Positions 18,678 through 32,552 of a DNA stretch of 64,000 nucleotides are shown piece by piece. Position numbers and translations under genes: made by a program. Numbering within the stretch: the stretch's first letter is position 1; the number at the start of each line of letters is the position of its first letter. The notes beneath the pieces were generated by a model that saw only the letters and a list, made by a program, of their open reading frames with translations, was not told the DNA's origin and did not search any database. This DNA is from a virus: the IMG/VR virus record IMGVR_UViG_3300028888_000124, positions 2,407 through 66,406 of that record; one strand, 5' to 3'.

Positions 18678-19472
18678 ATGTGCACGATTCCTGCCAATTT
18701 TAAATGGAGCTTTTCAAAATAGGAAAGCTATTCTCACTGTCCCATGATGTTCAAGCTGCATTATTTGGACGGGATCAAGGGAGATAACAATGCTTTTGCG
18801 CTGTACGGTTCGCTGTGCCATTCCCTCCTGGAGGATTATGAGAAAGGCAATATCCCCTCCTTTGCTTTGGCTGAGGAATATGAATCCCGCTATGATGGCA
18901 GCATTACTGCTCCGTGGCCGCCATTTCCCAAAGGCATGGCGCAAAAGTATTACGAGCAAGGGCTTCAGTATTTTGAATCCTTTGATGGGTTCGGCGATCA
19001 ATATGAAATCATTTCCGTAGAAGAAAAGTTTGAGCTGAACATTGAAGGATATCCTTTGGTTGGGCTGGCCGACCTGGTGCTCAGGGACAAAGAAACGGGT
19101 GAGATCACCGTCATCGATCATAAGTCCAAGTCCTCCTCCACCATGCAGAAGGATCTTCCCACTTACCGAAGGCAGCTTTATATCTATGCCGCTTACGTGA
19201 AAGAAAAGTTCGGCGTGTACCCCAAGTATTTGAAATTCAATTTGTTCCGGGAGAACGAATGGGTCACAGAAGAATTTGACCTGAACATGCTCAACGAAAC
19301 GATGAAGTGGGTGGTGGAAACGATTGAAAACATTTTGTTTGAAACGGATTGGAAGGTGTCGTGCTCGTCCTACTTCTGCCGCTTTGTCTGTTCAGTTTTC
19401 GATCATTGTCCCGCCAAGGAAGCGGTGCTGAATCCTCCGCCGAAAGAAAAGAAAGAGAAAAAGAATGAATAA
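18678..19472 (+). CDS. PD-(D/E)xK Cas4/RecB-like exonuclease with a Cys cluster; in-frame TAG at 18720
   Basis: RBS AAGGAG then ATG at 18678, in frame with track ORF 18744. N-terminus SFSK(TAG)ESYSHCP fits the S.S.L..Y..CP motif; QhxxY (YRRQLY) and C-terminal CxxxCxxxxxC. Confidence 0.7.
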
Positions 19473-25333: not shown

Positions 25334-26548
25334 ATGAAAGAACAAAGCGTTGTTTATCTGGTGAAGGTCGAGCCAGGAGCCAATAATAACAAATACTGGA
25401 AAGCAATGGCTCAAGGCGATCATTTCAACGTTGAGTATGGAAGGGTCGGCGGAACACCGCAGAAGTATTCCTATCCTATTTCCCAATGGAATAAAAAGTA
25501 CAACGAGAAGATAAAAAAAGGTTACGTTGACCGAACGGAATTGGTAGAGGATCTGATTGAAAAAGAAAAGCCCGCTACGCCGGATGGCTATCGTGCTATT
25601 GAAAACAAGGTGATCGCGGATATCGTGTCACGCTTGCAGGCCATGGCAAAGAAAGCGGTCAGCGAAAACTACACCATATCCTCCAGCAAGGTCACCATGG
25701 CAATGGTGTCTGCCGCTCAGGATCAATTAGCAAAGATGGCGGGCATGGCCGCCGCTTCCGTGGAAGAATTCAACCGCGCCTTGATTGAGCTGTTCGGTAT
25801 CATTCCCCGCAAGATGGGCCATGTATCATCCTATATTGCCACCAGCCAAAAGGAGTTTGGCCGTATTCTTGAACGCGAACAGGATCTGCTGGATGTGATG
25901 CGCGGTCAGGTGTATGTGCCGTCCAAGGAAAGCGAAATTGCCCCTCCTCCAAACGGTGAAGCCCACACGATCCTGGAAGAAAAGGGCCTTGTGTTTGAAG
26001 AAGTAACGGACGATGATATCGCCGTGATCAAATCCGCGCTTGGATCCTGTGCCGATAAATTCTGCCGCGCATGGCGAGTTACCAACCTGGCCACACAAAA
26101 ACGCTTTGATGAATATGTGCAGGGCGGCGTGAAGACAAAGCTTCTCTGGCACGGCTCCCGGAATGAAAACTGGTGGAGCATTGTGGGCAGCGGGCTGGTG
26201 TTGCGTCCCACCAATGCGGTCATCACCGGCAAGATGTTTGGCTATGGTATTTACTTTGCCACGAAAGCGCGAAAGTCTCTTGGGTACACCTCTCTTTCCG
26301 GCTCCTATTGGGCGCATGGTTCTTCCCCATCCGCGTTCATGGGGCTGTATGAAGTTGCCTACGGCAAGCCTTACGATGTGCATTCCTTTGATTCCAAATA
26401 TTATTCCCTGAATTATGAAGGGCTGCAGAAGATGTGTCCTGGGGCGAACTGCCTGCACGCGCACGAGGGCCAGATGCTTCGCAATGATGAAATCATTGTG
26501 TATCAGGAATGCCAAACGACAATCAAATATCTGGTGGAGCTCAAATAA
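25334..26548 (+). CDS. WGR-domain plus PARP catalytic-domain protein (H-Y-E triad present)
   Basis: N-terminal WGR-like YLVKVEPGANNNKYWKAMAQG..YGRVG; catalytic LLWHGSRNENWWSIVGSGL, GYGIYFATKA and NDEIIVYQ. Confidence 0.75.
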   Translation: MKEQSVVYLVKVEPGANNNKYWKAMAQGDHFNVEYGRVGGTPQKYSYPISQWNKKYNEKIKKGYVDRTELVEDLIEKEKPATPDGYRAIENKVIADIVSRLQAMAKKAVSENYTISSSKVTMAMVSAAQDQLAKMAGMAAASVEEFNRALIELFGIIPRKMGHVSSYIATSQKEFGRILEREQDLLDVMRGQVYVPSKESEIAPPPNGEAHTILEEKGLVFEEVTDDDIAVIKSALGSCADKFCRAWRVTNLATQKRFDEYVQGGVKTKLLWHGSRNENWWSIVGSGLVLRPTNAVITGKMFGYGIYFATKARKSLGYTSLSGSYWAHGSSPSAFMGLYEVAYGKPYDVHSFDSKYYSLNYEGLQKMCPGANCLHAHEGQMLRNDEIIVYQECQTTIKYLVELK

Positions 26549-26554
26549 TAAAAA

Positions 26555-26575
26555 GCCCGCGTTTTGCGGGCTTCA
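26555..26575. terminator. bidirectional hairpin agcccgc-gttt-tgcgggct
   Basis: Inverted repeat between convergent genes. Confidence 0.5.
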
Positions 26576-26577
26576 TT

Positions 26578-26952
26578 TTATGGATTCTGGCAAATATTTT
26601 TTATTTCCTCAACATCGCGTTTGATGTCGTAAGAAAGCTCGTTGGCTCTCATGAGGAGGCTGGCTTTGCCGTATGAAAAAGCCGAAAGAAACAGCAGCAG
26701 CATTCCTCCTGCAAAAACGATTGCTTTCATAGCAAGAACACCTGCGAGATATCCTGCTTTCAAACTTGCCTCTACCTGATAATTATATGCATCCCCTCCT
26801 ACATATGCTGCGCCCCTGTTTTTCATCCAATCATAGTCGTAGGCGTCGATACCGCTGTCTACACGCACGTATTTTTCCGGTACAGGATAAAGGATTCCAA
26901 ACCCAATCATTACCAACGCAACAATGATTCCCAGGACGGCCATGCCTTTCAT
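26578..26952 (-). CDS. small membrane protein (two TM segments)
   Basis: ATG after GAGGTGATACGA on the minus strand; same frame as track ORF 26578..27198. Confidence 0.5.
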   Translation of the reverse strand: MKGMAVLGIIVALVMIGFGILYPVPEKYVRVDSGIDAYDYDWMKNRGAAYVGGDAYNYQVEASLKAGYLAGVLAMKAIVFAGGMLLLFLSAFSYGKASLLMRANELSYDIKRDVEEIKNICQNP

Positions 26953-27066
26953 TCGTATCACCTCGTCATTTTTTATATCTTTTCTTTCGTCACTTTTTTC
27001 AATAATCCTGCCTTTGAAAACAATTATTGTTTTTGTTCCCATTTCTTTTAGAAAGGAAGTGGTTTT

Positions 27067-30000
27067 ATCTCTTATGTAAATTATCACCGCCATTCCCACT
27101 ATTCCAACATCATGCTGACTGATTCTGTTGCTACCAACGAGGACTATTGCAAGCGTGCAGTAGAGTTGGGCCACACCATTGTTTCCTCCTGCGAGCATGG
27201 AACACCCGGCGCGTACAGAGAAGTGTACGACCTTGCCAAGAAATACGGTTTACGCTGGCGGTATGTTGCCGAGGCTTATTTTGTGAAAGACCGCCTGACT
27301 GAGGATGAGAATGGCCGTCGTGACCGCAAGAATTGCCATTTGATTCTGGCAGCGAAAACCGCAAAGGGTATCGGTGATTTGAACGAAGTCCTCAGCGAGG
27401 CCAATATCTCCGGCTATTATTTCCGTCCCCGTGTGGATATGGAATTGCTGCTGCGCCTGGACCCCAGGGACGTATTTGTTACTACGGCCTGCATCGGCGG
27501 TATCTGGGTATATGGCTATAACAGCGACAAAGAAACGGGCGAATGGTCCTATGACTTTACCGAGCCCGACGCGCTTGTCCGTCAGCTTCACGCCCACTTT
27601 GGCGATAGCTTCATGCTCGAAGTCCAGTCTCACAATGTTGAAAAACAGAAAGCGGTCAACGCCCATATCCTTGATCTTTACCGCAAAGAAGGCATCAAGA
27701 TCATCGCGGGCATGGACAGCCATTTCATTTACCCGGAGGACAAAGCGCTGCGGGATATGCGGCTTGAAGCCAATGGTCTGCATTACGAGGATGAAGAAGG
27801 ATGGGCATTGGATTATCCTTCCGATGAAGAAGCTTACCTCCGCTTTGAGGAACAGGGCGTCTTGTCTCCCGCGCAGATTCAGGAAGCGATGGAGAACACA
27901 AACATCTTCCTTGACTTTGAGGACGTTGAATTTGACAAAGGCAAAAAGCTGCCGACCATTTATCCCGATCTGACCCAAGAAGAACGGAATGAAAAATACC
28001 GTCAGCTCGTGCTGTCCAAGTGGGATGAATACAAGAAGACAGTTCCGCAGGAAAGGTGGCCGGAGTACGAAGCTGGAATCAAATATGAAATGGACACCAT
28101 CACCTCCACGAACACCAGCGACTATTTCCTCCTGGATTACGAGTGGATTCGCAAAGCCAAAGAAATGGGCGGGCAATTGACAAAAACCGGAAGAGGTTCG
28201 GCTCCGTCCTATTTCACCAACACACTGCTTGGCTTCTCTTCCATTGACCGCTTTGCCTTGCCCATCACCATGTATCCTGACCGTTTCATTTCCGCTGACC
28301 GCCTAAAGGCAGGGTCGTTGCCAGATATAGATATGAACGTTTCCGATCAGGCTTTGTTTGGCGAAGCGATGACCGAAGTCATGGGGGAATGGCATTGCGC
28401 TCCCATGGTTGCTTATGGCACCTTGAAGAGACTGGCTGCGTGGAAGATGTATTGCCGCGCTGCCAACGTGCCATTTGATGTAGCCAATGAACTTTCGGAT
28501 AAGCTGAAAGCTTATGAACTGGATTATAAACATGCCGATGAAGATGAAAAGGATGAGATCAACGTCGAGGATTATGTGCCGGAAAAGTACCGCGAGTATT
28601 TGAAGGCTTCTGAAAAATACCTTGGGATGGTTGATTCCATTTCTCCTCACCCTTGTGCTTATCTGATTTGCAATCAGGATATTCGGCGCGAGGTTGGTAT
28701 CTTTCGCATCAACTCCAAGACGAGCAAAAAGAAGGTTGTCTATGCCGCGTTTATTGACGGCGCTACTGCCGATGCGTATGGCTATCTAAAGAACGACGAT
28801 CTCCAGGTCACGGTTGTGAAGCTGAACGATGAAATCTATAAGCGCATTGGGATTCCCCAACCTTCCGTGCCTGAGCTTTTGAAGATGACGGATGGGGATC
28901 AGCAGACGTGGGATATGTACGCGCAAGGATGGACGCTGGGCTTGAACCAGGCCGAGAAAGAAAAGTCCACCGAAAAAGTGATGCGCTATAAGCCCAAGAA
29001 TATTTCTGAACTTTCTGCTTTTGTGGCTGGTATCCGTCCCGCTTTTCAAAGCATGCTTCCCAAGCTGCTGAATCGTGGAAGCTTTTCCTATGATATTCCG
29101 GCTTTGGATAAACTGCTTCAAACCAAAGAACTCCCTCAATCATTTATTCTATACCAGGAGCAGATGATGAAGGTTCTCCAGTGGGGTGGATTCTCAGCTC
29201 CTGAGTCCTATGCGGCCATTAAAGCCATTGCAAAAAAACATCCTGAAAAAGTTCTTCCGCTGAAAGAAAGATTCATGGAGGGTTTTGCAAAGCGTCTGAT
29301 CGAAGAAGAAAATACGGAAGCAAGCGTTGCCAAAGAAACGACGGATAAAGTTTGGACGATCATTGCAGATGCTTGCGGCTATGGGTTCAATAGCAGCCAC
29401 TCCACCGCAGTTGCTCTGGACTCCCTCTATACTGCCTGGGCAAAGGCACACCACCCTTATGAGACTTACGTGTCGCTCCTTTCCCTTTACGCAGAGAAAA
29501 AAGATAAGGACCGCATCGCCAAAGCCAAGGTGGAAATGAAGAAAGCCTTTGGCATCAGTATCGCCCCCTGCCGCTTCCGTCAGGATAACCGCAGCTACTT
29601 TGTGGATAAAGACGCGCACACCATATCTGACGCGCTCACATCCGTCAAAGGCATTTCATTTGCCGTGGCCGGGAAGCTGTACCAGATGCGGAACAACCAA
29701 TACGATTCCGCCGTGGATCTGTTCTATGATCTTGAGGTGAACACCTCCATCAATTCCGCTGTGGTAAAAACTCTGATCCAGATGGGTTACTTTGAAGAGT
29801 TCGGCAAGGCCGGAAAGCTGCTCAAGCTCTATCAGGAATTCCGTGAAGGCGAAAGTAAGTTTTCCAAGACTCATGTGAAAACTACACAGGAAAAGCGGCT
29901 GGATACACTTCGGCAAATTGAAAAGAAATTGCCGGATGAAGATATTCCCATGCAGGATCAAATGGCGTTTGAGGTAGAGTTTTACGGTACACCACTGTCC

Positions 30001-30291
30001 GTCTATCCAGAGCATCTTGGCTGCTTTGCCATTCTGGAAGTGGACGACAAGTACAGTCCCAAGGTAAAGATGTACAATGTTGCCAAGGGTACGGTGGGCG
30101 TGATGAAGATGCGCAAGTCGCTGTATAAGTTGCATCCCCTTGCGGAAGGAAATGTGATCCGTCTGATTGATTGGAAACGGAAACCGGCTTACCAATACAT
30201 TGACGGGAAGCAAACGGTAAAAGCGGGGGTTTTTGATTTGTGGATCGAGGATTACGAAATTCTTTCCGGCAGTCCTGAAAAAGCGGCGTGA
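27067..30291 (+). CDS. dnaE: DNA polymerase III alpha-like replicative polymerase (PHP domain plus polymerase core); probable non-canonical ATC start
   Basis: Track ORF 27112..30291 (PDIDMN catalytic motif). In-frame upstream codons ISYVNYHRHSHYS match the DnaE N-terminus MSFVHLHVHSEYS. The only start 7 nt after SD AAGGAAG is ATC at 27067. Confidence 0.75.
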   Translation: MSYVNYHRHSHYSNIMLTDSVATNEDYCKRAVELGHTIVSSCEHGTPGAYREVYDLAKKYGLRWRYVAEAYFVKDRLTEDENGRRDRKNCHLILAAKTAKGIGDLNEVLSEANISGYYFRPRVDMELLLRLDPRDVFVTTACIGGIWVYGYNSDKETGEWSYDFTEPDALVRQLHAHFGDSFMLEVQSHNVEKQKAVNAHILDLYRKEGIKIIAGMDSHFIYPEDKALRDMRLEANGLHYEDEEGWALDYPSDEEAYLRFEEQGVLSPAQIQEAMENTNIFLDFEDVEFDKGKKLPTIYPDLTQEERNEKYRQLVLSKWDEYKKTVPQERWPEYEAGIKYEMDTITSTNTSDYFLLDYEWIRKAKEMGGQLTKTGRGSAPSYFTNTLLGFSSIDRFALPITMYPDRFISADRLKAGSLPDIDMNVSDQALFGEAMTEVMGEWHCAPMVAYGTLKRLAAWKMYCRAANVPFDVANELSDKLKAYELDYKHADEDEKDEINVEDYVPEKYREYLKASEKYLGMVDSISPHPCAYLICNQDIRREVGIFRINSKTSKKKVVYAAFIDGATADAYGYLKNDDLQVTVVKLNDEIYKRIGIPQPSVPELLKMTDGDQQTWDMYAQGWTLGLNQAEKEKSTEKVMRYKPKNISELSAFVAGIRPAFQSMLPKLLNRGSFSYDIPALDKLLQTKELPQSFILYQEQMMKVLQWGGFSAPESYAAIKAIAKKHPEKVLPLKERFMEGFAKRLIEEENTEASVAKETTDKVWTIIADACGYGFNSSHSTAVALDSLYTAWAKAHHPYETYVSLLSLYAEKKDKDRIAKAKVEMKKAFGISIAPCRFRQDNRSYFVDKDAHTISDALTSVKGISFAVAGKLYQMRNNQYDSAVDLFYDLEVNTSINSAVVKTLIQMGYFEEFGKAGKLLKLYQEFREGESKFSKTHVKTTQEKRLDTLRQIEKKLPDEDIPMQDQMAFEVEFYGTPLSVYPEHLGCFAILEVDDKYSPKVKMYNVAKGTVGVMKMRKSLYKLHPLAEGNVIRLIDWKRKPAYQYIDGKQTVKAGVFDLWIEDYEILSGSPEKAA

Positions 30292-30359: not shown

Positions 30360-31451
30360 ATGAGAAAATAGGCGAGCATTAAAACCATTACCAGCATTGC
30401 CCCGATTGAAGGAAAAGATTTGATCGGGCTGGCTGCCGTGGATGGCTGGGGTGTGATCGTGCAGAAGAGTCAGTTCAAGCCAGGCGATAAATGCGTGTAC
30501 GTTGAAATTGATTCCGTCATGCCTGAGAAGCCGGAGTTTGAATTTCTGCGCAAGAGAGATTTTCGCATTCGCACCATGAAGATGGCTGGCGTGATCAGTC
30601 AGGGCATCTGCTTCACGTTGGACATTCTTCCGCCCAAGAAAAACGGAAAAGAATATGCTCTGGACGAAGATGTGACGGAGGTCATCGGTGTTACCCAGTA
30701 CGAGCCTACAATGGATAAGGAACAGAACACCGAGAAAAAAGAACAGACAAAGAAATACCCCAAATGGCTGATGCGGTTTGCCTGGTTCCGGCGATTGGTA
30801 CTGGGGCCTCAAAAGAAAAAGGGCGGCTTCCCATCTTTCATTTCAAAAACAGACGAAGTGCGTATTCAGAATATCCCTCATATTCTGCAGGATAAGCGGG
30901 AATGGATCGCCACTGAAAAGGTGGATGGACAGAGCGGTACGTTTGCGCTGGTTCGCCATAAGCGCCGCATTCCCTTTATGAAGGACAAGTTTGAATACAT
31001 CGTCTGCTCCCGGAACTTGCGTTTGGCAAAGCCGGACAGTTCTTCTTACTGGCGTGTGTCCGAACGGTACAAGATCGAAAACGTTCTTGAGAATATGATT
31101 GGAGATCGTGAGTGGATCGCTATTCAGGGCGAGTGCGTTGCCCCCAACGTGCAGGGCAACAAATACAAAGTTACCGAGCCCGACCTGTATGTGTTCAATT
31201 TGATCTATCCCACCGGAAGGCTGGGAAGCAAGGTCGCCAAGTCAATCATCGAAAACCACGGCATGAAGTTTGTTCCCATCGTGGCTGAGGATTATGTGCT
31301 GCCGGATACCGTACAGGAAGTATTGGATTATGCTCATGGCCAGAGTGTATTGGGTGACACGCTGCGAGAAGGCATTGTTTTTCGCAGTAAAGACGGCGTG
31401 CATTCATTCAAAGCTGTCGATCCATTATTCCTGATCAAATACAACGAATAA
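30360..31451 (+). CDS. ATP-dependent RNA ligase (KxDG nucleotidyltransferase; N-terminal domain of the MRKLASI-type); in-frame TAG at 30369
   Basis: ATG at 30360 after GAAAGGA, in frame with track ORF 30420. N-terminus MRK(TAG)ASIKTI..PIEGKD; EKVDGQSGT motif. Confidence 0.7.
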
Positions 31452-31466
31452 AGAAAGGATATCATT

Positions 31467-32552
31467 ATGTCCAGAAGCTACGAGGAAGATCGTATCAAAC
31501 TGCAAAAGCTGATCAAGAGGATCATCATTGCTGTTGTTTCTCTGATTGCTGCTTTGGTTCTGGTCACCCAGACCATTGGTATTGTGCCTGTCAACCATAC
31601 GGGCGTATGGAAACGAGCTGGGGTTGTGCAGGATGCGGCAGTCAAAGAAGGTTGGCATTTGAAGATTCCTTTTGTGGATTCTATCGAAACCATTTCCAAC
31701 TTGGTGCAGACCACTACTGTTTCCTTTGCTCAGACAAAAGAAACGGCAGAAACCAAGGATCAGCAACTGATTATGGATTACGCTTTTGAAATTCAGCATC
31801 AGTTAGTGCCCGAGCAAAGCTTTGTCGTCTATAAGAATTATGGCAAAAACTATGAGCAAATGCTCATCACCTCTAATGTTCTTCCTGTGATCAAGCAAGC
31901 CTTCGCCAATTATGAAAGCGAGGAAATCACCACGCACAAAGAAGATATTGCGCTGTATATTCAAGGCAAATTGCAGTCATTCACTAAGGAATTCGGTATC
32001 AAAATCCTTCGTGTCAATTTCCAAAGCTATGATTTCACGAAGGAGTACGACGCGATTCTGGAAGAACGCGCCACCCTGAAAGCAAGAGTCACCAATGAAG
32101 AACTGCGCCAGAATCAGGAGCGGGTAGCGGCACAGACCGCCTATGATGTGGCGGTAAAACGCGCCGAGCAAGAAGCCGAAACAGCGAGGATTGCGGCAGA
32201 CAACGCCAAAGAAGTAGCGCTCGTAAAGGCCGAACAGGATAAGCAGACTGCATTGATCCAGGCGAACGCAAAAGCGGAGGCGGCGAAGATCGAGGCTGAC
32301 AACAAAGCATATGTAACTGTTACTTTGGCGGACGCGGATCGTGACGCCCGGCTTGCGGCAGCGGAAGCAACCAAAGCAGAATTGGAAGCGCAGGCCGCAG
32401 GGCTGACCGACCTTGTGATTCAGCGTGAATGGATCAACCGCTGGAATGGTAAGCTGATTCCCAGTTTTGGAACAGGCAGCGGATTGAGTTTTACTAATAT
32501 GACCGATATCATGAAATACTTTTTTGAGGAGACGGTAAAGGATGCAGAATAA
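31467..32552 (+). CDS. SPFH / band-7 domain membrane protein
   Basis: N-terminal TM then GVWKRAGVVQDAAVKEGWHLKIPFVDSI and an Ala/Glu coiled coil. Confidence 0.65.
   Translation: MSRSYEEDRIKLQKLIKRIIIAVVSLIAALVLVTQTIGIVPVNHTGVWKRAGVVQDAAVKEGWHLKIPFVDSIETISNLVQTTTVSFAQTKETAETKDQQLIMDYAFEIQHQLVPEQSFVVYKNYGKNYEQMLITSNVLPVIKQAFANYESEEITTHKEDIALYIQGKLQSFTKEFGIKILRVNFQSYDFTKEYDAILEERATLKARVTNEELRQNQERVAAQTAYDVAVKRAEQEAETARIAADNAKEVALVKAEQDKQTALIQANAKAEAAKIEADNKAYVTVTLADADRDARLAAAEATKAELEAQAAGLTDLVIQREWINRWNGKLIPSFGTGSGLSFTNMTDIMKYFFEETVKDAE

What the first reader, a model, noticed from the sequence alone, without database searches (positions are those of the whole stretch)
27028..27114. DnaE polymerase appears to initiate at a non-canonical ATC codon
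The track ORF starts at ATG 27112, but no SD precedes it. That start would also delete the PHP-domain HxH motif.

In-frame upstream codons read I-S-Y-V-N-Y-H-R-H-S-H-Y-S. These match the universal DnaE N-terminus M-S-F-V-H-L-H-V-H-S-E-Y-S. The frame is closed by a TAG 6 codons further up. There is no in-frame ATG, GTG or TTG between that TAG and 27112.

The only candidate initiator, 7 nt after SD AAGGAAG, is ATC at 27067.
Basis: partly seen in the sequence, partly recalled or inferred. Interest (0 to 1): 0.5.

Follow-up and report, generated by a model that had tools for sequence, protein, structure and literature searches.

The report
Phage DnaE starts at ATC codon
The replicative DNA polymerase gene of this phage almost certainly begins at a rare ATC start codon behind an unusually strong ribosome-binding site; a whole clade of related phages uses ATT or ATC there, and gene callers usually cut the protein short.

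Summary
The reading frame of ATG 27112 is open back to TAG 27049. The 15 codons before 27112 encode the first strand and HxH motif of the PHP domain. The only table-11 start codon in that stretch is ATC 27067.

- The start region is identical in four contigs from different samples, so it is not an assembly error.
- Twelve further distinct relatives carry ATT or ATC at the homologous codon. An extended Shine-Dalgarno sequence always lies 7-9 nt upstream.
- In nine lineages an in-frame stop lies 1-6 codons upstream, with no ATG, GTG or TTG in between (in L013, none outside the SD itself).
- Codon-periodic conservation begins exactly at this codon.
- The SD-to-start spacer tolerates a 1-nt indel.
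- Relatives outside the clade have ATG, GTG or TTG at the same position.

The window's SD is the second strongest of 65 long ORFs. This matches the known "weak AUU-class start plus extended SD" design of infC, pcnB, cvfC1 and ccpN. It is a new member of a known kind.

In practice, 19 of the 39 closest database proteins are called without the HxH motif.

The parts
27049..27051 (+). In-frame TAG stop that closes the dnaE frame six codons before the ATC.
   Evidence: TAG acts as an ordinary stop in this window, ending 9 of 54 long ORFs.
27050..27064 (+). Extended Shine-Dalgarno sequence AGAAAGGAAGTGGTT. It can form 14 pairs with one mismatch against an assumed 16S 3' tail, GAUCACCUCCUUUCU.
   Evidence: Duplex energy is -16.5 kcal/mol, in the top ~0.1% of all 20-mers in the window. 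It is the second strongest of 65 long ORFs, whose median is -9.3. An equivalent SD lies 7-9 nt before the ATY in every ATY lineage.
27067..27069 (+). ATC, the proposed initiation codon of dnaE.
   Evidence: It is the only table-11 start codon between the TAG and the conserved Tyr-Val-Asn-Tyr-His codons. It is homologous to ATT/ATC in 12 other lineages and to ATG in L043, L034 and L037, which read M-[SP]-Y-[VQ]-N-Y-H.
27067..30291 (+). dnaE coding sequence as revised: 1074 codons plus a TGA stop. It encodes a C-family DNA polymerase III alpha subunit.
   Evidence: Pfam finds PHP, DNA_pol3_alpha and DNA_pol3_finger above their cut-offs. HHH_6 scores 23.6 bits, just under its 25.6-bit cut-off. 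The protein is 39% identical over 98-100% of its length to DnaE of Bacillus phages Sophrita and Tsamsa and Geobacillus virus E3.
27085..27093 (+). CAC CGC CAT, the His-x-His of PHP motif I. It would be lost if translation began at 27112.
27112..27114 (+). ATG used by ORF and gene callers. It is an internal Met codon.
   Evidence: No SD precedes it. The homologous codon is CTC, CTT, ACC, ATT or ATC in 8 of 13 ATY lineages.
27059..27079 (+). Out-of-frame mini-ORF GTG GTT TTA TCT CTT ATG TAA. Its GTG is part of the SD. This is the rival start and is rejected.
   Evidence: The GTG lies 1 nt after the GGA core. Its frame relative to dnaE differs between lineages: in frame in L013, L022 and L024; at one offset in WIN, L045 and L046; at the other offset in L001, L014, L015, L026 and L042.
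27039..27062 (+). Hairpin that pairs CCATTTCTTT with the SD AAGGAAGTGG. It is lineage-specific and probably incidental.
   Evidence: One search finds it. One search gives -9.9 kcal/mol and z = -1.4, and finds no counterpart in L013, L024 or L046.

Best explanation
dnaE of this phage is translated from ATC 27067.

The proposed mechanism has three steps:
1. The 30S subunit is placed by an unusually long SD:anti-SD duplex at 27050-27064.
2. Initiator fMet-tRNA reads AUC as a near-cognate codon, mismatched at the third position. The protein therefore begins with Met, not Ile: M-S-Y-V-N-Y-H-R-H.
3. Near-cognate AUU/AUC/AUA starts are selected against by IF3 and yield roughly 1-10% of an AUG start. 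The design therefore holds polymerase synthesis low, and the extended SD guarantees that the site is still used.

The same design, ATT or ATC behind an extended SD, is kept throughout a clade of related metagenomic phages down to about 73% amino-acid identity. Record names suggest these are probably ruminant-gut phages.

What is shown: the position of the coding start, the absence of any canonical alternative, the conservation of the ATY codon and SD, and the reality of the sequence.

What is inferred: that fMet-tRNA initiates there, the low efficiency, and any regulatory purpose such as dosage limitation or sensitivity to IF3.
For: 1. Frame anatomy is as described.

2. The start region is identical in four contigs from different samples.

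3. The homologous codon is:
- ATC in WIN, L023, L026 and L046;
- ATT in L001/L039, L013, L014, L015-17, L022, L024, L042, L044 and L045;
- ATG only in L043 and L034 within the clade.

4. In WIN, L045, L046, L001, L014, L015, L026, L042 and L013, an in-frame stop lies 1-6 codons upstream. In the first eight there is no canonical start in between. In L013 the only one is a GTG inside the SD GAGGTGATCC.

5. Column entropy by codon position is 0.46/0.37/1.30 for codons 2-25 and 1.58/1.51/1.53 for the 36 nt upstream. Synonymous against non-synonymous differences are 455:249 in codons 2-15 and 59:947 upstream.

6. The SD-to-ATY spacer carries a 1-nt indel: T4 in WIN and L045, T5 in L022. This switches the frame of the SD-internal GTG, as expected of non-coding spacer.

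7. SD duplex energies are -12.5 to -18.4 kcal/mol in all ATY lineages. The ATG lineage L043 has -9.1. The window's SD ranks second of 65 ORFs.

8. Relatives outside the clade have ATG, GTG or TTG at the same position behind an SD: L003, L004, L007, L011, L012, L025 and L037.

9. Precedents exist. E. coli infC and pcnB start at AUU, and near-cognates give 0.02-3% of AUG (10.1101/063800). S. aureus infC, cvfC1, ccpN and citZ use AUU or AUA with extended SDs and give ~10% of AUG (PMC13009471).
Against: - No experimental evidence of initiation exists: no N-terminal peptide and no ribosome profiling.
- Natural AUC starts, as opposed to AUU or AUA, are hardly documented in bacteria or phages. My literature searches found none.
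- The host and its 16S 3' end are unknown, so the duplex energies rest on an assumed anti-SD.
- In four lineages an in-frame canonical codon exists a few codons upstream (GTG in L013, L022 and L024; TTG in L023) and could be used there.
- An internal Ile codon would also toggle between ATT and ATC. The toggling is therefore not by itself evidence for a start or for selection of a weak one.
- ATG has reappeared twice inside the clade, so a weak start is not obligatory.
Confidence: 0.8

Rival explanations
1. Translation starts at the out-of-frame GTG 27059 and reaches the dnaE frame by a shift in the T-run 27063-66. The shift could be a -1 ribosomal frameshift or transcriptional slippage. Alternatively, the window carries a real 1-nt deletion relative to an ancestor that read GTG-ATT-TTT-ATY.
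For: L022 reads GTG ATT TTT ATT TCT, with the GTG in frame, and is called MIFISYV. The window differs by one T fewer. L013 and L024 also have the GTG in frame.
Against: - The GTG is part of the SD (AAGGAAGTG, GAGGTGATCC), only 0-2 nt after the GG core, and has no SD of its own.
- Its frame relative to dnaE takes all three values among lineages. No shared slippery site exists: GTT TTA in WIN, ATC TTA in L046, and none in L001, L014, L015, L026 or L042.
- The residues it would add (V/I-F/H/E) are not conserved, and entropy shows no codon periodicity upstream of the ATY.
- T4 with an in-frame TAG is shared by WIN and the ~84%-identical L045, and is identical in four samples.
Confidence: 0.06
2. 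The gene callers are right. Translation starts at ATG 27112 and yields a DnaE without PHP motif I. The 15 upstream codons would then be an untranslated relic.
For: ATG 27112 is the first canonical start in the frame. P0001 and P0004 are called the same way.
Against: - No SD precedes 27112.
- The 14 codons between the ATC and 27112 (codons 2-15) show purifying selection on the protein, 455 synonymous against 249 non-synonymous differences. They also show 3-periodic conservation.
- The Met codon is replaced by Leu, Thr or Ile codons in 8 of 13 lineages.
- Truncation would remove the first strand and the HxH of the PHP domain, which align to the N-termini of solved DnaE structures.
Confidence: 0.06
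3. It is a sequencing or assembly error: ATG misread as ATC, or a homopolymer error.
For: A single-base change would give ATG. A T-run lies next to the codon.
Against: The sequence is identical in four contigs from four samples in three repositories. The ATY state is shared by 12 other divergent lineages.
Confidence: 0.01
4. The TAG at 27049 is read through or recoded, as in TAG-recoded phages, and the gene starts further upstream.
For: A more distant subclade of relatives has in-frame TAG codons inside dnaE.
Against: - TAG ends 9 of 54 long ORFs in the window, and dnaE itself contains no internal TAG.
- The 33 codons upstream of the TAG that were read (27049 back to 26950) contain no ATG, GTG or TTG, and from about 26943 back the frame overlaps the divergent minus-strand gene.
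- Other ATY lineages have TGA or TAA stops there.
Confidence: 0.01

Closest known systems
AUU/AUA-initiated bacterial genes with strong SDs: E. coli infC and pcnB (AUU); S. aureus infC (AUA), cvfC1 (AUU), ccpN (AUA, also in B. subtilis) and citZ (AUA)
   Same: A near-cognate AUN start codon sits at the position where orthologues have AUG. It is conserved among relatives and preceded by an extended, correctly spaced SD. In those systems the measured effect is lowered translation.
   Different: Here the gene is a phage replicative polymerase, and the codon is AUC or AUU. I found no natural AUC case documented for bacteria or phages. Neither IF3 dependence nor efficiency has been measured. infC's autoregulatory logic has no obvious counterpart here.
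DnaE (C-family Pol III alpha) of cultured Firmicute phages: Bacillus phages Sophrita, Tsamsa and Izhevsk, Geobacillus virus E3, Psychrobacillus phage Perkons, and Lactococcus 949-group phages
   Same: They share the domain order PHP, palm/NTPase and fingers, with a borderline HhH match in the window. Identity is 36-40% over the full length. The N-terminus M/V/L-R-Y-x-N-[LY]-H-K-H is collinear with the window's I-S-Y-V-N-Y-H-R-H.
   Different: The three checked use canonical starts: GTG in Sophrita, TTG in E3 and ATG in Perkons. The window's clade uses ATT or ATC.

Membership tests
Non-canonical (AUU-class) SD-directed initiation sites | A near-cognate AUU, AUC or AUA codon at the position homologous to the start codon of orthologues. 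| tested here: met
   ATC 27067 aligns with ATG of L043, L034 and L037 (M-[SP]-Y-[VQ]-N-Y-H) and with ATT/ATC of 12 lineages.
Non-canonical (AUU-class) SD-directed initiation sites | No in-frame canonical start between the upstream stop and the conserved N-terminal residues. | tested here: met
   Met in the window. Also met in L045, L046, L001, L014, L015, L026 and L042.
Non-canonical (AUU-class) SD-directed initiation sites | A strong or extended SD at functional spacing. | tested here: met
   AAGGAAG followed by 7 nt. Duplex energy is -16.5 kcal/mol, second of 65 ORFs. All ATY lineages have 7-9 nt spacing and -12.5 to -18.4 kcal/mol. The anti-SD sequence is assumed.
Non-canonical (AUU-class) SD-directed initiation sites | The non-canonical codon is conserved among relatives. 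| tested here: met
   Thirteen distinct lineages form one clade in an NJ tree, with two ATG reversions.
Non-canonical (AUU-class) SD-directed initiation sites | Direct evidence of initiation: an N-terminal peptide, an initiation-arrested ribosome footprint or a toeprint. | not testable with these tools
   The sequences are known only from metagenomes. No host or isolate is available.
Non-canonical (AUU-class) SD-directed initiation sites | Reduced, IF3-sensitive translation relative to AUG. | not testable with these tools
   Inferred from E. coli and S. aureus measurements.
DnaE / C-family DNA polymerase III alpha | An N-terminal PHP domain with the HxH motif, followed by the Pol III alpha palm/NTPase and finger domains. 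| tested here: met
   PF02811 matches residues 6-189, PF07733 residues 319-553 and PF17657 residues 605-742. PF14579 falls just below its cut-off. 2HPI aligns from chain residue 8.
Programmed ribosomal frameshift at the 5' end | A conserved slippery site and a constant frame relation between the upstream start and the main ORF. | tested here: not met
   The frame relation of the SD-internal GTG or ATG varies among lineages, and no shared slippery motif exists.

The most novel reading that the evidence does not exclude
The weak AUU/AUC start behind an extended SD is a selected regulatory device of this phage clade. It would either cap replicase dosage or couple polymerase synthesis to the host's IF3 and translational state, much as infC senses IF3. 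That would make it the first conserved AUC/AUU-initiated replication gene described in phages.
Probability: 0.3. Interest if true: 0.6.

Novelty: new member of a known kind. Interest (0 to 1): 0.42.

Why it matters
- **Annotation.** Standard gene callers, which consider only ATG, GTG and TTG, cut the PHP motif-I segment off this polymerase. Of the 39 closest database cluster representatives, 19 are called without the HxH motif. At least six more are started at an SD-internal GTG, an upstream TTG or the Val codon. Domain and structure inferences made from those entries would be wrong at the N-terminus.
- **Biology.** Conserved natural AUU/AUC starts are few. A clade-wide case on an essential phage replication gene, always paired with an extended SD, supports the view that Firmicute-type ribosomes can be steered to weak start codons by long SD duplexes. 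It also offers a natural series of ATT, ATC and ATG variants for testing this.
- **AUC in particular.** I found no documented natural bacterial or phage start at AUC.

Tried and rejected
- **Near-identical DNA in cultured phages.** None was found. Only 36-40% protein matches exist.
- **Sequencing error.** Rejected, because four samples give the same sequence.
- **Frameshift or indel from GTG 27059.** Rejected on the variable frame relation, the lack of a slippery site and the position of the GTG inside the SD.
- **TAG recoding.** Rejected.
- **A phage-encoded special initiator tRNA.** The window contains no tRNA genes.
- **Genome-wide use of ATY starts.** A scan of the window's ORFs gave only dnaE plus one false positive at 19432. 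The feature is therefore gene-specific.
- **A conserved regulatory RNA structure around the SD.** The hairpin at 27039-27062 is weak (z = -1.4) and not conserved.
- **Truncated calls as a proxy for ATY starts in distant relatives.** This is not reliable. P0102/L051 has a proper SD + GTG start that the caller missed.
- **Literature on AUC, ATT or other non-canonical starts in phages or in Pol III genes.** Nothing specific was found.
- **Not used.** The metagenome scan gave 18 loci, so no genome-contig scan was run. Structure prediction was not needed.
Full report
**1. The observation**

Reading 26700-27500 and translating 27028-27330 confirm every stated detail. In the frame of ATG 27112 the sequence is:

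TAG(27049) AAA GGA AGT GGT TTT ATC(27067) TCT TAT GTA AAT TAT CAC CGC CAT TCC CAC TAT TCC AAC ATC ATG(27112)

This reads *KGSGF-ISYVNYHRHSHYSNI-M.

- No ATG, GTG or TTG lies in frame between the stop and 27112. The mechanical ORF list accordingly starts the 1059-aa ORF at 27112.
- AAGGAAG lies at 27053-59, 7 nt before the ATC.
- Nothing SD-like precedes 27112.

**2. Is the extension really DnaE?**

Translated from 27067, the 1074-aa protein matches four Pfam families:
- PHP, residues 6-189, from profile position 2 of 164;
- DNA_pol3_alpha;
- DNA_pol3_finger;
- HHH_6, at 23.6 bits, just below its 25.6-bit cut-off.

tblastn against cultured phages aligns from query residue 1 to DnaE of Bacillus phages Sophrita, Izhevsk and Tsamsa and Geobacillus virus E3, at 39-40% identity and 98-100% coverage.

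Against solved structures, query residue 4 aligns to residue 8 of Thermus aquaticus Pol III alpha (2HPI). Query residue 2 aligns to residue 3 of M. tuberculosis DnaE1 (5LEW). The ATC therefore sits exactly where DnaE proteins begin. A start at 27112 would remove the first strand and the HxH motif of the PHP domain.

**3. Not an error**

The exact protein is encoded on five contigs. Four were fetched, from ENA ERZ27257205, JGI 3300032030, JGI 3300024337 and Logan SRR7633495. Over the 150 nt upstream of 27112 all four are identical to the window, including the T4 run and the ATC. One of them may be the window's own source. The others are separate samples.

**4. Relatives**

A protein search returned 2,726 homologues at E <= 1e-30. 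Of the 39 closest cluster representatives (about 68-96% identity), 19 are called with N-termini that begin after the HxH motif. Examples are MLTDS, MSNIIL, MILTDS, MATNEDY and MGHTIL. Among the next 81, only 9 are.

I fetched DNA for six truncated calls (P0001, P0004, P0008, P0010, P0015, P0017). I also fetched three calls that start a few residues upstream (P0003, P0005, P0014), plus loci from IMG/VR and the JGI metagenome collection.

Anchored on the conserved Y-V-N-Y-H codons, the codon homologous to 27067 is:
- ATC in WIN, L023, L026 and L046;
- ATT in L001/L039, L013, L014, L015-17, L022, L024, L042, L044 and L045;
- ATG in L043, where a GIY-YIG gene has been inserted upstream and overlaps as ATGA, and in L034.

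In eight lineages (WIN, L045, L046, L001, L014, L015, L026, L042) an in-frame stop lies 1-6 codons upstream with no canonical start in between. In L013 a TAA lies six codons upstream, and the only canonical codon after it is a GTG inside the SD. Two examples:
- L014: GAGGAG TGA TGA ATC ATT CCG TAC GTA
- L042: AAAGGAG TGA TCC CGT ATT CCC TAT GTA

An SD precedes the ATY by 7-9 nt in every case. It takes the forms AAGGAG, AAGGAAG, AAGGGG or GAGGTGATCC.

Relatives outside this clade have ATG, GTG or TTG at the same place behind an SD:
- L003: GTG
- L004, L005, L006, L007: ATG
- L011, L012: TTG
- L025, L037: ATG

Cultured phages use GTG (Sophrita), TTG (E3) and ATG (Perkons).

**5. Where coding starts**

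Across 14 anchored sequences, column entropy for codons 2-25 is 0.46/0.37/1.30 bits at codon positions 1/2/3. For the 36 nt upstream it is 1.58/1.51/1.53 with no periodicity, apart from the conserved SD block.

Pairwise codon differences among the 13 ATY lineages in codons 2-15 are 455 synonymous against 249 non-synonymous. In the 14 pseudo-codons upstream they are 59 against 947. The segment between 27070 and 27111 is therefore translated, and the coding signal begins at the ATY codon.

The Met codon at 27112 is itself not conserved. It is CTC, CTT, ACC, ATT or ATC in 8 of 13 lineages.

**6. The main rival: GTG 27059 and the T-run**

L022 reads AAGGAAGTG ATT TTT ATT TCT, with the GTG in frame, and is called MIFISYV. 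The window reads AAGGAAGTG GTT TT- ATC TCT, one T fewer, which puts the GTG out of frame. One could read this as a frameshifted start. I reject that for four reasons:
- The GTG belongs to the SD, which complements the 16S 3' end (...GGAGGTGATC), and sits 0-2 nt after the GG core.
- Its frame relative to dnaE takes all three values across lineages. It is in frame in L013, L022 and L024. It takes one offset in WIN, L045 and L046, and the other in L001, L014, L015, L026 and L042.
- There is no shared slippery site.
- The residues it would add are not conserved.

A 1-nt indel in this stretch is what one expects of a non-coding spacer.

**7. SD strength**

The window's upstream 20-mer was tested against an assumed Firmicute-type 16S tail, GAUCACCUCCUUUCU. 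It forms a 14-pair duplex with one mismatch, at -16.5 kcal/mol. Only about 0.1% of all 20-mers in the window reach -16.

The window's SD is the second strongest of 65 long ORFs. This holds even though each ORF was credited with its best-SD start; the median is -9.3. All ATY lineages lie between -12.5 and -18.4. The ATG lineage L043 has -9.1.

Canonical SDs such as AAGGAGGT upstream of other window genes support the assumed anti-SD.

**8. Other alternatives**

- *TAG recoding.* A more distant subclade of relatives does carry in-frame TAGs in dnaE. In the window, however, TAG ends 9 of 54 long ORFs. The 33 codons read upstream of 27049 hold no canonical start codon, and further back the frame runs into the divergent minus-strand gene.
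- *Special tRNA.* The window has no tRNA genes.
- *A genome-wide habit.* A scan of the window's ORFs flags only dnaE and a false positive at 19432, which lies inside the preceding gene.
- *A conserved RNA switch.* A hairpin at 27039-27062 pairs with the SD. It is weak (-9.9 kcal/mol, z = -1.4) and absent from L013, L024 and L046.

**9. Phylogenetic pattern**

A rough NJ tree of the first 185 residues puts all ATY lineages in one clade. Identity to the window over this segment goes down to about 73%. ATT is probably ancestral. ATC arose several times (WIN, L026, L023, L046), and ATG reappeared twice (L043, L034).

The window's closest relative, L013, is 99% identical over this segment. It has ATT and a completely different upstream region, in which dnaE directly follows the PARP-like gene. 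The window instead has a minus-strand ORF and a 5' region like that of L045 and L022. The SD-plus-ATY module thus persists through recombination at this variable slot.

A more distant lineage, L002 (about 50% identity), appears to use ATA behind AGGTGGTGAT. This suggests the design arose more than once.

**10. Mechanism and comparison with known cases**

The anatomy matches the known class of weak AUU-type starts.
- E. coli infC and pcnB start at AUU, and AUA, AUC, AUU and CUG give 0.02-3% of AUG in reporters (10.1101/063800).
- In S. aureus, ribosome profiling found conserved AUU and AUA starts (infC, cvfC1, ccpN, citZ). All have extended SDs and give about 10% of AUG (PMC13009471).

I therefore propose the following:
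- SD-directed 30S placement, with fMet-tRNA decoding AUC as a near-cognate codon;
- Met as the first residue of the protein;
- throttled, possibly IF3-sensitive, synthesis of the polymerase.

The first two points are strong inference. The purpose of the throttling is conjecture. Two caveats apply: ATG revertants exist, and an internal Ile codon would show the same ATT/ATC toggling.

**11. Verdict**

It is a new member of a known kind. It is notable for three reasons: it uses AUC, it is clade-wide on a phage replicase, and it causes systematic N-terminal truncation in automatic annotation. One caution on that last point: truncated calls in distant relatives are not all ATY cases, since L051 has a missed GTG start.

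Noticed in passing
L029, L030, L032, L036, L040, L041 (for example L030, 18 codons after position 1510): A more distant subclade of DnaE relatives (58-67% identity) carries in-frame TAG codons inside the polymerase gene. One example is DSVAT[TAG]EDY, where others have L, N or M. These are probably TAG-recoded phages. The window itself uses TAG as a stop.
   Followed up: partly
window 25334-26548 (+); L015 1080-1508: The gene upstream of dnaE encodes a protein with WGR and PARP catalytic domains. This is conserved in that position in most relatives. Some relatives also have a Macro-domain gene next to it, which suggests an ADP-ribosylation module in the replication region.
   Followed up: partly
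window 26578-26943 (-): A 121-aa minus-strand ORF with no Pfam hit sits between the PARP-like gene and dnaE. It is absent from L013, whose DnaE N-terminus is 99% identical. Other relatives carry different small ORFs or a GIY-YIG gene (L043) in this slot. This is a hot spot for insertion that ends right at the SD/ATY module.
   Followed up: partly
window 27039-27062 (+): A hairpin pairs CCATTTCTTT with the dnaE SD AAGGAAGTGG and is followed by TTTT. It gives -9.9 kcal/mol and z = -1.4. It is not conserved in L013, L024 or L046, so it is probably incidental, though it could further damp initiation in this lineage.
   Followed up: yes
window 26552-26574 (both strands): A 9-bp GC-rich hairpin with T-runs on both strands lies between the convergent PARP-like gene and the minus-strand ORF. 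It looks like a bidirectional intrinsic terminator.
   Followed up: no
proteins P0011, P0017, P0019, P0084, P0090, P0110 and others: Many relatives carry intein (PF14890) and HNH insertions in DnaE, giving lengths of 1213-1681 aa. The window's copy has no intein.
   Followed up: no
L002 2980-3010: A DnaE about 50% identical (IMGVR_UViG_3300011724_000025) has no canonical start either. AGGTGGTGAT TTC ATA AAT AAT TAT CAT suggests an independent ATA start behind an extended SD.
   Followed up: partly
L051 560-600: P0102 is called truncated, although a well-spaced SD + GTG start exists (AAAGGAG CTCATTGTC GTG CTA AAT TAC CAC). This is a gene-caller error unrelated to non-canonical starts.
   Followed up: yes
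window 30420-32552 (+): Downstream of dnaE lie an RNA ligase (PHA02142 OB fold plus RNA_ligase) and a Band_7/SPFH protein. Relatives continue with RemA-like, ThyX, glutaredoxin and NrdD genes.
   Followed up: no
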